IMG/VR virus record: IMGVR_UViG_3300027779_002770
Location: 18,660-82,659 of that record
Direction: 5' to 3' (one strand)
Source of the DNA: a virus
Length of the DNA: 64,000 nt
The position numbers and the translations under genes were made by a program. Every line of letters begins with the position of its first letter. The stretch's first letter is position 1. The notes under the pieces are model-generated. The model made no database searches, was not told the origin of the DNA, and saw only the letters and a list, made by a program, of their open reading frames with translations. Shown in pieces: positions 52,899-56,485 of the stretch.

Positions 52899-53248
52899 CA
52901 AAACGAATTATCTCAGCAATACACATAGTGATAGTTTCTGTAGCATTGTTATACTGTTCACTAAGGGCACAAAAGATTTATTCTGTCAAGTATCGTAATC
53001 AATCTGATTTATCAGTTTACGTGACTGATTATCCTGCACAGGCAGATTTATTAGTATACAAAGTAAAATACCGTGATAGAGCTGGTGATAAAAGTGGTTG
53101 GTGGTATTTTGAAAAATATTCTAATACAGCAGACAAGAAGATTTATTTTGAAAAATATCCTGTAAGTGCAGACTTGAAGATTCATTTTGTACAATACAAG
53201 AGTAACGCAGGCTGGAGAAGGCCACATAGACAATACCTACTACAATGA
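52895..53248 (+). CDS. secreted protein with internal ADL.VY repeats (DUF6150-like)
   Basis: Signal peptide; SDLSVYV, ADLLVYKV, ADKKIYF, ADLKIHFV. Confidence 0.65.
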   Translation: MTKRIISAIHIVIVSVALLYCSLRAQKIYSVKYRNQSDLSVYVTDYPAQADLLVYKVKYRDRAGDKSGWWYFEKYSNTADKKIYFEKYPVSADLKIHFVQYKSNAGWRRPHRQYLLQ

Positions 53249-53639
53249 AATTAACTGACATCATATTCTTTTATACCAATCTAGTATTCACTGGTATTGT
53301 AATACTAACCACAGTATTAGCAGGACTATTCATATACTCCCTATTCTGGTTGCTAATAGTGCCACCAATGTTTTTATCAGATGTGTTTACTACACTCATA
53401 CGCAATAGACGATGAAGAATCTATTTATATTTGTATTCCCATTCTTAAGAACACCAACTGAGGAAGAGATGGAAGGATTTAAAGATTACATAATAATGTT
53501 CTATGAGTTTAGGTATGAGCTTATAAGTTTCGAGTTGGCATATGCATAACATCACGCGCGACCCGGCCGAGGACACTGAACGCCGGCTGCCGCGCGCGAC
53601 GCGCGGCGCCGCCGAAATTTCTCACGTGCCCGAACTTTC

Positions 53640-54015
53640 CGGATCTAACAGTAATGAAGGCAAAGCGAGAGCTCTCATATCAGGTGACCTCCCCGCGGGG
53701 CGGGGGCCTAACGGCGATCCAACCAACCAGAGTAATAATGACAACTGGTTCCATGCATTTGCATGGACCTCAATGCGGATGTTGAACCCCCATTATCTCC
53801 ATGGAGATATAGATGGAAAAAACTGGATACACCGAGAGGGGCCAGAACTCTTGCAAGGGACATCCGCAAAAACATCGGCTAGCTCCGCAGGTAGTTATAT
53901 GGATGCCTTGAGACTGCAGACTCGCGTAAAGCGAGTCCAATATGACTCAACACCAGGATATAACGCGCCATCCCTTTGGGATGGCTGCTTAGTAAATCCT
54001 CGGAGCAGCCGATCC
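53640..54015 (+). ncRNA. candidate large structured non-coding RNA, family unassigned
   Basis: At least ten helices including nested long-range pairs, GNRA loops, directly 5' of tRNA-Gly; strand inferred from the tRNA and GNRA loops. Confidence 0.6.
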
Positions 54016-54037
54016 ACATCTATTCACGAATTGATGT

Positions 54038-54108
54038 GCGAGTATCGTATAGCGGTAATACCCCAGCCTTCCAAGCTGGTGACGTCAGTTCGATTCTGTC
54101 TACTCGCT
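54038..54108 (+). tRNA. tRNA-Gly (anticodon TCC)
   Basis: GCGAGTA/TACTCGC acceptor stem, U73, GTAT/ATAC D-stem, CCAGC-CTTCCAA-GCTGG, TTCGATT T-loop (one T-stem mismatch); CCA not encoded. Confidence 0.9.
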
Positions 54109-54319
54109 CAAACTCCTATTCCAGGTAACCACTATAGCAATGGTCTACCGGACAGTAGACCTGCAGAGGCCTCCTATCATATGCTAACACCATAAGATAC
54201 TTTGCAGAGACATACTATATAATATAATACATGGGATAGGAGTAATTTGACTAAGTCATAGTCACAGTGACCATGCTAATGACCAAGGTACATGTATTCA
54301 CATGATACCAATAAACTAG

Positions 54320-54372
54320 TCTTTCAGGAAGATAACTGATCCTACGAATGTATCTTTCAGGAAGATAACTGA
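54320..54372. repeat. 20-bp direct repeat TCTTTCAGGAAGATAACTGA x2, 33-bp period
   Basis: Exact copies at 54320-54339 and 54353-54372. Confidence 0.9.
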
Positions 54373-54770
54373 CCCCCCACCCAATACAATATAAACGGTA
54401 CATGTATACAAGTACATCCATCCATGCCCACATGGATACCCCGCAAGTATCATTTAAGGCTCTCCGCTACCCTGTAATATACATCAATGCACTATGTAGC
54501 ATAGATGATACACTGATGGTAGAGTGTTATGGGTGCTGTTGTATATGACCACGTCACACATCCTCCAGTACTTGGCAGCTATCGTAGAAGCTTACTCACG
54601 TATTTATCAAGTTAATGCCTATTTATTGGTATGAAGTATCAGAATCAACATATCCCTACTATGCTCACGCGCGCGTCGCTTTTTCTTTTTCCGCCCGGCA
54701 GTGTAAGTGAGGCTAAGTATATATGACATAATGACATACCCAGTATATACAGAAACATTAAAGGAATTAC

Positions 54771-55121
54771 ATGATGGACTCGTTTAAGCATAATGGACAA
54801 TTAGAGAACAACCAGAGGTATATTACCAAGAAGCAGCTAGCAGAGAGACTCGGGGTAACTGAGGTAAGCATCGACAATTGGCGGAGGACCGGGGCTCTAC
54901 CGTATATCAAGATGGGTGCTAGTACTAATAGCAGGGTTTTGTTTGATATGAATGATGTTGAAGACTATATGGAGAGGCGTAAGCTGAATGTGGGTGAGAG
55001 ACGACACCTTCAGGGGTTACATAGGGCTAATGGTTCTTTTAAGCCTAAGCATGAGGATGAAGCTGATGATAGTCACGTAGAAGATACAGCTAATTGGGAT
55101 GCACCGCCAGACATATACTAA
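54771..55121 (+). CDS. excisionase/MerR-like winged-HTH DNA-binding protein
   Basis: YITKKQLAERLGVT..SIDNWRR.G.LPYIK.G...VLF....V. Confidence 0.82.
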   Translation: MMDSFKHNGQLENNQRYITKKQLAERLGVTEVSIDNWRRTGALPYIKMGASTNSRVLFDMNDVEDYMERRKLNVGERRHLQGLHRANGSFKPKHEDEADDSHVEDTANWDAPPDIY

Positions 55122-55294
55122 ATAGCACGTCTAGCAAGACGTCGGTTTTACCTCGAGGGCCGCAGCCTAGAGCCCTACGGCTCAGAATCAGCAGTTACTA
55201 AACAAAAATACTTTCACTTTTAGCAAAAAAAGCCTTTCATCTTAAGCTTAGAATGCTTATATTAGGGCATCAAATACAAGAGGTTACACATCAA

Positions 55295-56485
55295 ATGAAA
55301 CAATACAATTTAACACCAGACACCGTCGTAGTAAAAATCGAGGCACGTGGTACGCGACTCGTAGCTATTGACGCTAAGGGTAACAAGGTTAACGGTCCTT
55401 CCAAAAAGTGGAAGACTACTGCCTTCGATACTAACTGTGCGCTAGCAGAGATCATAGGTTCAACCGGCAGGGGCTACTGGAGACCGGTAGAGATGGATGA
55501 GTTCAACAGCCGGGCTAACATACCTGCTCCAATGGAGCCGATTGAAGTACCCAACGATCATGGTGAAGTACTAGATTTTATCCATTCATCTTATAAGCTT
55601 AAACCGGCTAGCCTGGTTATGAATGAGTTGAAGTGGAAGTACCTTGTACGCTCTGCTGTACGTGGTAAGAATATTATGATGACCGGTCCTGCTGGTTGTG
55701 GTAAGACTATGGCTGCTAGAGCACTGGTTAAATCACTAGACAGACCGGACTTCTATTTTAATATGGGTGCTACCCAAGATCCCCGAGCTACCTTAATCGG
55801 CAACACACACTTTTCAAAGGACACTGGGACTTATTTCACTGAGTCAGCCTTTGTTAAAGCGATTATGACATCTAATGCCGTTATACTAATGGATGAGTTA
55901 TCCAGGGCTCACCCAGACGCATGGAACATCCTAATGACCGTGTTAGACGAAGGACAAAGATATCTTCGGTTGGATGAGGCAGAAGGACAGGCAACTATTA
56001 AGGTAGCTGAAGGGGTAACATTCATCGCGACTGCTAACGTTGGTAATGAGTACACCTCTACCAGAGTTATGGATAGAGCGCTAGTTGATAGGTTCACACA
56101 GATCGAGATGGATGTACTGAATAAAGATCAAGAAGCTGGACTACTTAAAGCACTCTACCCAGACGTAGACTTTAATATACTTGAGAACCTTGCTGAACTA
56201 TCCCATATAACTAGGGTAGAGTCACAAGGCGACGATGGTAAGTTATCAACCCACGTATCTACTAGAACATCAGTAGAAGCGGCAAGTCTAATACATGATG
56301 GCTTCACCCTTAGTGAAGCAGCCGAAGTAACAGTGCTACCCCGATTCGATAGTACAGGTGGGCTAGAATCAGAGAGAACCTACGTAAAGCAGGTCCTCCA
56401 GAAGTTCCTTAACGATGGCTCCTCCGATGAGTTATTCTCCGATGTAGAAGAAGATGCTGAAAATCTAATGGACTCCAGCATATAG
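55295..56485 (+). CDS. MoxR/CbbQ-type AAA+ ATPase (CobS-like)
   Basis: GPAGCGKT, ILMDELSR, IATAN.G.EY, DRALVDRF, STR; start moved to ATG 55295. Confidence 0.88.
   Translation: MKQYNLTPDTVVVKIEARGTRLVAIDAKGNKVNGPSKKWKTTAFDTNCALAEIIGSTGRGYWRPVEMDEFNSRANIPAPMEPIEVPNDHGEVLDFIHSSYKLKPASLVMNELKWKYLVRSAVRGKNIMMTGPAGCGKTMAARALVKSLDRPDFYFNMGATQDPRATLIGNTHFSKDTGTYFTESAFVKAIMTSNAVILMDELSRAHPDAWNILMTVLDEGQRYLRLDEAEGQATIKVAEGVTFIATANVGNEYTSTRVMDRALVDRFTQIEMDVLNKDQEAGLLKALYPDVDFNILENLAELSHITRVESQGDDGKLSTHVSTRTSVEAASLIHDGFTLSEAAEVTVLPRFDSTGGLESERTYVKQVLQKFLNDGSSDELFSDVEEDAENLMDSSI

What the first reader, a model, noticed from the sequence alone, without database searches (positions are those of the whole stretch)
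53640..54108. Unassigned ~375-nt highly structured RNA candidate abutting tRNA-Gly
Seen: a GC-rich stretch almost tiled by helices. Long-range pairs: GGATC(53641)/GATCC(54011), AAGGCA(53657)/TGCCTT(53904), TGCGGATGT(53774)/ACATCCGCA(53860) closing a multibranch junction, TTGAG(53908)/CTCAA(53946), AGGAT(53955)/ATCCT(53996). Hairpins: CCCCGC/GCGGGG(53691), AACCAG/CTGGTT(53725), CCATGC/GCATGG(53751), TATCTC/GAGATA(53794), GACTCGC/GCGAGTC(53919), GCCATCCC/GGGATGGC(53967), with GNRA loops (AGC-GAGA-GCT, CC-GAGA-GG). It ends 22 nt before tRNA-Gly. Known: large ornate phage ncRNAs such as GOLLD and ROOL often sit beside tRNAs. UGCGG/CCGCA, GAGACU and GAUAUA echo group I intron P/Q/R/S elements, but I could not build a canonical P7. 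Inference: a new or divergent large phage RNA co-transcribed with the tRNA.
Basis: partly seen in the sequence, partly recalled or inferred. Interest (0 to 1): 0.85.

Follow-up and report, generated by a model that had tools for sequence, protein, structure and literature searches.

The report
Phage gene-end hairpin RNA beside tRNA-Gly
The supposed 375-base phage RNA is a patchwork: its start belongs to a small protein gene and its last 150 bases are an enlarged copy of a conserved, uncatalogued hairpin that marine phages place at gene ends and next to tRNA genes.

Summary
It is not one 375-nt RNA.

- **Where the folding excess sits:** in 53868-54019 (z -7.15). The 5' 235 nt is marginal (z -1.86).
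- **53542-53736:** this encodes the conserved N-terminus of a small phage protein family, with four relatives of 64-146 aa.
- **53737-53867:** specific to this lineage and unresolved.
- **53868-54019 ("H1"):** an expanded member of a hairpin family found in about 30 marine-phage contigs. It sits directly after stop codons or next to tRNA-Gly. The basal stem covaries at 13 of 16 pairs, and the distal part varies from about 20 to 105 nt.
three of the five long-range helices clash with the conserved H1 stem.
- **Known families:** Rfam 15 has no match for any part except the tRNA.

My best reading is that H1 is a cis-acting RNA processing or 3'-end-protecting hairpin that separates an mRNA from the tRNA. 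That function is inferred, not shown.

One fact remains unexplained. ORF 53542-54195 stays open through H1 and the tRNA (P about 5e-4).

A second uncatalogued motif, E2, turned up in relatives.

The parts
53412..53549 (+). Small upstream ORF (45 aa). Its stop overlaps the ATG of the next ORF (ATGCATAA).
   Evidence: Read from sequence. A homologous small ORF lies in L002.
53542..53736 (+). Conserved N-terminal coding part (65 codons) of a small phage protein family with no Pfam or PHROG match. Invariant motif DPAxDxERRxPRATRGxxE, then PELSGSNS.
   Evidence: Relatives P0002 (64 aa), P0003 (121 aa), P0004 (130 aa) and L002 ORF146. Four synonymous third-position changes against L002. No family match.
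53590..53606 (+). GC-rich palindrome CCGCGCGCGACGCGCGG inside the conserved N-terminal coding part (encodes PRATRG).
   Evidence: Identical in L002. Coordinates checked.
53692..53706 (+). CCCGCGGGGCGGGGG hairpin: a 5-codon insertion specific to the window lineage.
   Evidence: Absent from P0002, P0003 and P0004 in alignment A5.
53737..53867 (+). Lineage-specific stretch, still inside ORF217, with local hairpins (53725-53750, 53751-53766, 9-bp helix 53774-53782/53860-53868). Status unresolved: coding tail or spacer.
   Evidence: No homologue beyond near-identical copies. P0002 diverges and stops just after the residues matching 53736. z only -1.86 for 53636-53870.
53794..53809 (+). 16-nt perfect palindrome TATCTCCATGGAGATA, replaced by a different short block in the 97%-identical relative P0001.
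   Evidence: That the replacement is also a hairpin is inferred from back-translation only; the DNA could not be fetched.
53868..54019 (+). H1 hairpin, expanded copy. 5' flank AAAAAC; P1a 53874-53880/54007-54013; bulge A 53881; P1b 53882-53887/54001-54006; bulge C 53888; P1c 53889-53891/53998-54000; 99-nt distal insert with hairpins 53919-53937 and 53967-53985; A-rich 3' loop AGTAAAT 53991-53997; tail CCAC.
   Evidence: CM R1/R2 hit of 58-60 bits, E ~1e-13. z -7.15. Family covariation. Coordinates checked.
54038..54109 (+). tRNA-Gly(UCC), no encoded CCA.
   Evidence: ARAGORN. Rfam tRNA 61.4 bits. The identical tRNA occurs in L004, L233, L235, L256, L268, L295 and L301.
54201..54228 (+). Sigma-70-like promoter candidate (TTTGCA-16-TATAAT) that starts the next unit. 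The counterpart in relatives is TTGATACTAACGGACTACGTAATATAAT.
   Evidence: Relatives' sequences.
53542..54195 (+). ORF217, open through H1 and the tRNA. Only its first 65 codons have protein homologues.
   Evidence: P(open) ~5.5e-4 for the last 152 codons. Flat GC at the three codon positions, 0.56/0.52/0.53. No such ORF in L004.

Best explanation
The region is a composite on one transcript of an uncultured marine phage, not a single large RNA.

(1) 53542-53736 encodes the conserved N-terminus of a small, fast-evolving phage protein that is translationally coupled to the upstream small ORFs.

(2) 53737-53867 is a lineage-specific, hairpin-containing continuation of unresolved status.

(3) 53868-54019 is an expanded member of a conserved hairpin RNA family, called H1 here. 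Its layout is a 15-17 bp three-part stem with two single-base bulges on the 5' strand, an A-rich 5-6 nt loop on the 3' strand, a variable distal hairpin and a 3' tail N-YCA. These phages place H1 immediately after stop codons, next to tRNA-Gly or other small RNA modules, and upstream of terminators or promoters.

(4) tRNA-Gly follows 24 nt later.

Shown: the family exists, its stem covaries, its position is constant, and the window copy carries a 99-nt distal insertion.

Inferred: H1 acts in cis on the RNA as punctuation. It would be a double-stranded processing signal and/or a 3'-end protecting hairpin that separates the upstream mRNA from the tRNA once the tRNA is cut out. Because its sequence is repeated, it would also serve as a junction at which RNA-gene cassettes are swapped.
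For: **H1 family.** The scan with its 5' arm and CM searches found copies in L004/L266 (two), L309 (two), L270, L252, L256/L268, L274, L295, L301, L345, L069, L081, L070/72, L075, L065 and L073, plus 13 from a pattern scan. P1 has 13 of 16 pairs changed on both sides and 94-95% of cells paired. None of 500 shuffles reaches this, and slid controls give 35-50% paired. G-U pairs occur in P1c and P2, and the + strand is more stable in 14 of 18 copies.

**Position.** 12 of 13 pattern-scan copies start 0-6 nt after the stop codon of the MoxR-like ATPase gene, and one starts right after a tRNA. Several are followed by a canonical terminator. In L252, L295/L301 and P0003 the upstream ORF ends in the TAG of the H1 5' arm. 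H1 lies 5 nt before tRNA-Gly in L295, L301 and L274.

**Cassette behaviour.** L270, L309 and L004 differ exactly by material lying between two H1 copies.

**Window copy.** 58 bits and z -7.15.

**Coding 5' part.**

**No known family.**
Against: No experiment or read-end data show processing at H1. The contigs of RNA libraries laid on the region give no usable ends.

Within subfamily 1, all 32 stem bases are invariant in contigs whose interiors differ and whose ATPases are only 60-74% identical. A purely structural hairpin does not need that. It points to a sequence-specific partner or to recent spread.

P1 has no G-U pair in 19 copies.

There are only about six independent stem versions, and the alignments used for counting were fitted to the model.

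ORF217 stays open across H1 and the tRNA (P ~5.5e-4). The composite reading treats this as chance or as a recent frame change.

The protein evidence for 53542-53736 rests on protein-level matches, which can only find in-frame conservation. DNA exists for one relative only (L002).
Confidence: 0.55

Rival explanations
1. H1 is released as a stable small RNA that acts in trans. It would be a mimic of the tRNA acceptor/T-stem stack (6-bp stem, one unpaired base, then YCA) cut out by RNase P and 3' trimming, like the unexplained stable RNAs of the T4 tRNA cluster. It could bind a tRNA-handling enzyme or carry an amino acid.
For: H1 sits in arrays with tRNAs and another small RNA, E2. The outermost pair is not conserved, which leaves a 6-bp stem + N + (C/U)CA in all subfamilies. 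P1a + P1b is 11-12 bp, the length of an acceptor/T stack. The invariant stem sequence of subfamily 1 fits a sequence-specific protein partner. In subfamily 1 the register U1:A72, C2:G71, G3:C70, U73, CCA resembles bacterial tRNA-Gly identity elements. That comparison rests on my own knowledge of GlyRS identity and was not tested.
Against: There is no T-loop, D-arm or cloverleaf, and no tRNA or tRNA-like Rfam match. Subfamily 2 has UCA, not CCA. Most subfamily-2 copies sit at the end of a protein gene with no tRNA nearby. No abundance or end data exist.
Confidence: 0.15
2. H1 matters mainly at the DNA level. It would be a conserved imperfect inverted repeat serving as a recombination or mobility junction (PeSL-like homologous exchange, or a single-strand hairpin site for a recombinase) that moves tRNA-Gly, E2 and other cassettes between phage genomes.
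For: Identical arms flank cassettes, and L270/L309/L004 differ by what lies between two copies. The same H1 with near-identical interior lies behind unrelated genes (L274, L345, L295, L270, L252), while the neighbouring tRNA-Gly of L274 has diverged by ~12%. There is no G-U in P1. Extrahelical bases and a variable distal part recall integron attC sites; that comparison is from my own knowledge.
Against: One or two copies per contig, and one in the 82-kb record. No recombinase, HUH or integrase gene was seen nearby. attC core sites are absent. G-U pairs in P1c/P2 and the strand asymmetry favour RNA. The constant placement right after stop codons and before terminators is what an RNA element would show. 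Exchange at repeats may be a by-product.
Confidence: 0.12
3. ORF 53542-54195 is a real 217-aa protein gene, and the hairpins are incidental to, or tolerated within, coding sequence.
For: The frame is open for 152 codons beyond the conserved N-terminus (P ~5.5e-4) while the other two frames carry 11 and 8 stops. The start overlaps the upstream stop. The hairpin swap in P0001 and the 15-nt insertion both keep the frame.
Against: The ORF runs through a bona fide tRNA gene (61 bits). It also runs through H1, which lies outside or at the very end of ORFs in every other context. Relatives' proteins end after 64-146 aa, at or before H1. L004 has stops in all frames around the same tRNA. GC is flat over the codon positions, the codon-model score is 0 to 0.15 bits/codon against 0.24-0.48 for real genes, and there is no Pfam or PHROG match.
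Confidence: 0.08
4. One reading: one new ~375-nt ornate ncRNA (53640-54015) closed by long-range helices and co-transcribed with tRNA-Gly.
For: Overall z -4.8. GC-rich island in an AT-rich phage. Every listed helix exists. A 9-bp helix 53774/53860 is in the predicted fold. There is no Rfam match, so it would be new.
Against: The folding excess is confined to the H1 domain. Three closing helices compete with the covarying H1 stem. The 5' 100 nt is conserved as protein. Relatives keep H1 but none of the 5' hairpins, and two of those hairpins are indels or swaps between close relatives.
Confidence: 0.07

Closest known systems
RNase III processing signals and gene-end hairpins of T7-group phages (my own knowledge of Dunn and Studier's T7 R sites; not tested here)
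   Same: Hairpins of roughly two helical turns placed right after stop codons inside polycistronic phage transcripts. They have an asymmetric internal loop between a lower and an upper stem, and the copies resemble one another in sequence. After cleavage they leave a protective 3' hairpin on the upstream mRNA.
   Different: No sequence relation is known. H1 has two single-base bulges and a variable distal part that can grow to 100 nt. It also flanks tRNAs. Cleavage by any nuclease is unproven, and the host is unknown.
PeSL cassettes of T4-type phages (PMC2839356, PMC4122927)
   Same: Short conserved stem-loop-containing repeats in the variable regions of large phages. Indels and gene swaps between relatives occur at them, as at H1 in L270/L309/L004.
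   Different: A PeSL is a composite of an early promoter and a terminator stem-loop. H1 has no promoter hexamers inside it and no U-tract. The promoter-like element is a separate block downstream (54201-54228).
T4 rnaC/rnaD (species 1 and 2 stable RNAs of the tRNA cluster; my own knowledge, and also named in earlier scan note e1-5760964)
   Same: Non-tRNA structured RNAs encoded among phage tRNA genes and co-transcribed with them. Their function has been unknown for decades.
   Different: H1 is a plain long hairpin and is more often at the end of a protein gene than in a tRNA cluster.
GOLLD and ROOL large ornate RNAs (Rfam; PMC5737381; bioRxiv 10.1101/2024.12.08.627333)
   Same: Phage-associated, often near tRNA genes, GC-rich relative to their surroundings.
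   Different: GOLLD and ROOL are large multi-domain RNAs conserved as a whole. Here only a 60-90 nt hairpin core is conserved, the rest is coding or lineage-specific, and there is no covariance-model match even at E<=10.
Bacterial REP elements (my own knowledge)
   Same: Imperfect palindromes just downstream of stop codons, in sequence subfamilies, thought to protect upstream mRNA and to be mobile.
   Different: REPs occur in tens to hundreds of copies per genome and are tied to RAYT transposases. H1 occurs once or twice per contig, and no such gene was seen.

Membership tests
GOLLD, ROOL, group I intron, RNase P RNA, tmRNA, Y RNA/YrlA, SRP RNA, 6S (any Rfam 15 family) | Match to the family covariance model at or near its gathering score | tested here: not met
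   cmscan of the window at gathering thresholds and of 53200-54500 at E<=10 gave only tRNA. Relatives' loci gave the same result. ARAGORN found no tmRNA.
tRNA (54038-54109) | Cloverleaf with anticodon; covariance-model score above 29 bits | tested here: met
   61.4 bits; tRNA-Gly(UCC).
H1 hairpin family (defined here) | Match to model R2 over its full length (flank, P1a-bulge-P1b-bulge-P1c, A-rich 3' loop, N-YCA tail) | tested here: met
   Window 53868-54019: 58.3 bits, E 2.5e-12 over 1 Mb, model positions 1-88. The arms are identical to subfamily 1.
H1 hairpin family (defined here) | Stem supported by compensatory changes among members | tested here: met
   13 of 16 P1 pairs change on both sides, with 0 of 500 shuffles as high. 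Caveats: only ~6 independent stem versions, and the alignment was fitted to the model.
H1 hairpin family (defined here) | Upstream ORF ends within ~10 nt of, or inside, the 5' arm | tested here: not met
   In the window the TAG of the 5' arm (53880-53882) is out of frame (offset 2), and ORF217 reads on to 54195. The feature is met in L252, L268, L270, L295, L301, P0003 and 12 subfamily-2 copies.
PeSL (promoter-early stem-loop) | Early promoter hexamers joined to a terminator-type stem-loop within ~60 bp | tested here: not met
   No promoter-like or terminator-like site falls in 53868-54019 on the + strand. The 3' tail has no U-tract.
RNase III processing signal | Cleavage by RNase III at a defined site in a ~20-bp helix | not testable with these tools
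   Only the architecture can be compared. The 82-kb record holds no phage RNase III gene.
Integron attC site | R''/R' core sites (RYYYAAC ... GTTRRRY) at the ends of the imperfect palindrome, with an integrase nearby | tested here: not met
   The H1 ends read AAAAAC-ATCGGCT ... AGCCGAT-CCAC, with no GTTRRRY. No integrase lies among the neighbouring genes.
Protein-coding gene (ORF217 as a whole) | Homologous proteins over its length and gene-like composition | tested here: inconclusive
   Homologues cover only residues 1-~65. GC is flat by codon position and the codon score is intermediate, yet the frame is improbably open.

The most novel reading that the evidence does not exclude
H1, together with the E2 pseudoknot motif that accompanies it in relatives, is a new class of phage small RNA rather than passive punctuation. 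It would be a scaffold with an invariant, protein-recognised stem and a freely variable distal module. One possibility is a tRNA-Gly acceptor-arm mimic that is processed and perhaps charged. Another is a carrier whose variable distal part specifies a target. The window's open frame across H1 and the tRNA would then reflect coupling between translation and RNA maturation.
Probability: 0.15. Interest if true: 0.7.

Novelty: new member of a known kind. Interest (0 to 1): 0.4.

Why it matters
Large phages carry RNA-gene islands whose non-tRNA members are mostly unexplained. This analysis removes a false candidate for a large ornate RNA. In its place it defines two small uncatalogued RNA motifs supported by covariation: H1, present in the window, and E2, present only in relatives.

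It also shows that H1 marks the points at which tRNA-Gly and other RNA cassettes are gained and lost between related marine phages.

If H1 proves to be a processing signal, it would show how these uncultured phages separate mRNAs from tRNAs. If it proves to be a stable RNA with a protein partner, it would join the small set of phage tRNA-associated RNAs of unknown role, such as T4 rnaC/rnaD.

Tried and rejected
- **Rfam.** Gathering thresholds, and E<=10 on the region and on relatives' loci: tRNAs only, plus a tmRNA on an unrelated part of L365.
- **GenBank phages.** blastn found only the tRNA. The nearest isolate for the ATPase is 52% identical, so there is no cultured relative.
- **IMG/VR scans.** The 14-mer GGAGCAGCCGATCC and the leader palindrome gave chance hits only. 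The 18-mer arm gave L004 plus one chance hit. The translated 5' part gave nothing.
- **Genome scan of 185,579 species.** Six chance hits, none with the 3' arm; H1 was not found in cellular genomes at exact-word level.
  - Contigs from two RNA libraries cover 53371-53749, 53543-53730 and 54113-54316 at depth 2.6-4, which does not prove transcription.
  - No contig from either the RNA or the DNA runs covers 53795-53983, so nothing can be said about H1 expression or RNA ends.
  - The breaks may reflect strain variation.
- **Codon-usage model.** Ambiguous, because even the homology-supported N-terminus scores near zero.
- **Subfamily 1 alone.** All 16 P1 pairs are invariant, so it gives no covariation evidence.
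- **Phage genes for RNase III, TROVE/Ro and CCA-adding enzyme.** None in the 82-kb record, which is only ~41% of a genome.
- **SRP, Y RNA, tmRNA tRNA-like domain, attC and REP.** Considered from my own knowledge and set aside, for lack of model matches or defining features.

Full report
**Setting.** The window is part of an 82.6-kb IMG/VR virus record, estimated 41% complete. It has ~35% GC and genes on one strand. It comes from seawater: the stretch is held by 15 marine DNA runs. No cultured phage is close; the best ATPase identity is 52%. The finding lies in a ~1.2-kb stretch (53550-54770) between a chain of overlapping small ORFs and an HTH gene. That stretch has no ORF with a recognisable family.

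**Observation.** The stretch 53630-54037 folds to -140 kcal/mol, z -4.8. The opposite strand gives z -4.2.

Split into parts, the excess belongs to the last 152 nt. 53868-54019 gives z -7.15, 53636-53870 gives z -1.86, and the GC-rich leader 53545-53640 gives z -0.79. Rfam 15 matches nothing but the tRNA, even at E<=10.

**The 3' third is a member of a hairpin family (H1).** The closest relative with this tRNA, L004, has an ATPase 74% identical to the window's. It shares a 20-nt and a 28-nt block with the window. These blocks are the two strands of the basal stem. In L004 they occur twice, before and after the tRNA, around shorter and different interiors.

One metagenome scan with the 5' arm returned true relatives among chance hits. 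These are L241 (identical over the RNA region), L252, L256/L268, L270, L274, L295, L301, L309 and L345. All carry an ~85-nt hairpin with this layout:
- 5' flank AAAAAC
- stem strand ATCGGCT, bulge A, GCTCCG, bulge C, AGG
- a variable 30-45 nt interior
- TAAAT, then CCT, CGGAGC, AGCCGAT
- tail CCAC

Within this subfamily all 16 stem pairs are invariant, which says nothing about structure either way.

A covariance model then found diverged copies in L069, L081, L070/72, L075, L065 and L073. A pattern scan of IMG/VR added 13 more. In these copies the stem strands are different sequences that still pair:
- P1a: TCGGCT/AGCCGA, CGAGCT/AGCTCG, TCGCCC/GGGCGA, CCACCC/GGGTGG, TCACCC/GGGTGA
- P1b: GCTCCG, GCTCT, ACCTC, ATCTC and GCCTC, each with its complement

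On 19 copies, 13 of 16 P1 pairs change on both sides and 94% of cells pair. None of 500 shuffles reaches the observed values, and slid registers give 35-50% pairing. There are two caveats: only about six independent stem versions exist, and the alignment was fitted to the model.

G-U pairs in P1c and P2 make the + strand the more stable in 14 of 18 copies, which favours an RNA read in the direction of the genes. The window copy scores 58 bits. It differs by a 99-nt distal insertion that forms two further hairpins.

**Where H1 sits.** Twelve of the 13 true pattern-scan copies start 0-6 nt after the stop codon of the MoxR-like ATPase gene. One starts directly after a tRNA. A canonical terminator often follows within 20-60 nt.

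In subfamily 1 the upstream ORF ends in the TAG of the 5' arm (L252, L295/L301, and P0003, which ends ...NQNIG) or in a TGA 6 nt before it (L268, L270). Downstream lies one of several things:
- tRNA-Gly, 5 nt away in L295, L301 and L274, and 24 nt away in the window
- a second small motif, E2
- a tRNA-like piece
- a promoter-like block

L270, L309 and L004 differ exactly by what lies between two H1 copies (nothing, E2, or E2 plus tRNA-Gly), so exchange happens at H1. The same tRNA-Gly also occurs without H1, behind an Hsp20 gene, in more distant phages. The exact 5'-arm 18-mer was found in none of 185,579 prokaryote genomes other than by chance.

**The 5' part is at least partly coding.** ORF 53542-54195 has one near-identical protein relative, P0001 at 97%. 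Searching its 5' part found P0002 (64 aa), P0003 (121 aa) and P0004 (130 aa). L002 encodes a 146-aa counterpart at the same position, also overlapping the upstream stop.

The five proteins share DPAxDxERRxPRATRGxxE. Four of them also share PELSGSNS and further conservative matches up to about residue 65. P0003 and L002 also share a C-terminal block, 46% identity over 94 residues. Against L002, the four single-base differences inside conserved residues are all synonymous third positions.

So 53542-53736, which includes the first 97 nt of the proposed RNA, is best read as coding.
- The AGC-GAGA-GCT hairpin lies in this coding part.
- The CCCGCGGGGCGGGGG hairpin is a 5-codon insertion absent from the relatives.
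- The 16-nt palindrome at 53794-53809 is replaced in P0001 by a different block one codon shorter. That the replacement is also a hairpin is only inferred from back-translation.

Beyond ~53737 the relatives differ entirely. Nothing similar to 53737-53867 was found anywhere.

**What does not fit.** ORF217 stays open for 152 codons past the conserved part, through H1, the tRNA and 86 nt beyond. Shuffles give P ~5.5e-4, and the other two frames carry 11 and 8 stops.

Evidence against a real 217-aa protein:
- The frame contains a tRNA gene.
- H1 is outside ORFs everywhere else.
- GC is flat over the codon positions.
- The relatives' proteins are shorter.
- L004 has stops in all frames around the tRNA.

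A codon model cannot decide. I leave this unexplained. It may be a recent frame change with a lucky long read-through, or translation may be coupled to maturation of the downstream RNA.

**Mechanism.** Shown: H1 is a conserved, covarying hairpin on the coding strand, at the boundary between a translated region and the next RNA unit. Inferred (about 0.4 for this specific function): it works in cis on the transcript. It would be a double-stranded processing signal and/or a hairpin that protects the 3' end of the upstream mRNA once RNase P has freed the tRNA, by analogy with gene-end RNase III signals of T7-group phages.

The invariant stem sequence of subfamily 1, the conserved A-rich loop and the N-YCA tail suggest a sequence-specific partner. 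That keeps two rivals alive: a released stable RNA that mimics a tRNA acceptor arm, and a DNA-level recombination site. Contigs from RNA libraries cover only the 5' coding part and the stretch after the tRNA, and give no ends.

**Comparison and novelty.** There is no membership in any Rfam family. PeSLs (PMC4122927) share the role of exchange point but are promoter-terminator composites, which H1 is not. GOLLD and ROOL are whole-molecule conserved large RNAs, and this is not.

The finding is therefore a new member of a known kind, a phage cis-acting hairpin or small RNA motif, not a new large RNA. The scan's earlier notes on this genome mention the GC-rich zone (e1-6107833) but not H1.

Noticed in passing
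L004 70-147; L309 4552-4629; L252 5085-5162; L274 636-713; L345 1752-1829; L008/L009 7517-7594; L024 471-548; L029 5087-5164; L265/L314: A second uncatalogued RNA motif (E2, ~65 nt) made of two abutting hairpins: S1 (5 bp, loop UCCAUCC) and S2 (10 bp, loop UUGGAUGGCUCNGUUGAGU). Both stems covary in five versions with several G-U pairs. The loops are invariant and complementary to each other (CCAUCC/GGAUGG), which suggests a kissing-loop pseudoknot. E2 sits next to H1 and tRNAs and has no Rfam match. It is not present as such in the window.
   Followed up: partly
window 53967-53985: The distal insert of the window's H1 holds GCCATCCC-TTT-GGGATGGC(T). These are the two words that form the loop-loop pairing of E2, joined here as a plain hairpin. 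It may be a collapsed E2 derivative or a coincidence.
   Followed up: no
window 53737-54195: ORF217 remains open for 152 codons through a conserved hairpin RNA and a tRNA gene (P ~5.5e-4 by shuffling), while the other two frames have 11 and 8 stops. Unexplained.
   Followed up: partly
L268 (reverse strand) and L256 ~400-440 and 690-750; L252 4900-4960 and 5065-5090: Small hairpins with a 5-bp covarying stem and loop YTACRC (CTATG-CTACGC-CATAG, CCGTG-CTACGC-CACGG, ACGTG-TTACAC-CACGT). They are swapped in and out between otherwise near-identical contigs. They resemble boxB-type protein-binding hairpins, and the adjacent small ORFs start with an arginine-rich peptide.
   Followed up: no
L256 525-616 (= L268); L009 7330-7525: tRNA-like pieces with a good T-arm (GGTTCGAGCCC / GGTTCGAGTCC) and a paired acceptor-like stem. 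Neither ARAGORN nor the Rfam tRNA model calls them. They lie between H1 or E2 and real tRNAs.
   Followed up: no
window 54201-54228; L004 320-350; L233 4655-4690: A conserved promoter-like block (TTGATACTAACGGACTACGTAATATAAT in relatives, TTTGCA-16-TATAAT in the window) always follows the tRNA-Gly/H1 module. In the window it precedes ~540 nt without an ORF before the HTH gene at 54771.
   Followed up: partly
window 54321-54373: Direct repeat TCTTTCAGGAAGATAACTGA, two copies 33 nt apart, in the ORF-free stretch after the tRNA.
   Followed up: no
window 55225-55295; L004 1140-1210; L301 535-600: Conserved motif CCTTTCATCTTAAGC...GAATGC..A.ATT...AGAGGTTACA directly upstream of the ATPase gene and, in L301, of another gene. 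It is a candidate phage-specific promoter plus ribosome-binding region.
   Followed up: no
L233 4559-4630; L234; L235 2934-3005: The same tRNA-Gly (identical, or one base different in L234) sits right behind a small heat-shock protein (Hsp20-like) gene in more distant relatives. The tRNA therefore moves between contexts with its downstream promoter block.
   Followed up: partly
L365 10938-11357 (- strand): A marine phage contig carrying an H1 copy also encodes a full-length tmRNA (Rfam 96 bits).
   Followed up: no
window 53590-53606 and L252/L268/L270 leaders: The start of the small protein gene is unusually GC-rich, with CG-alternating palindromes: CCGCGCGCGACGCGCGG in the window, and CGCGAGCGATCGCGCGAGCG in other lineages. 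Arginine codons there are CGN in a 35% GC phage. A nucleic-acid-level constraint may overlap the coding one.
   Followed up: no
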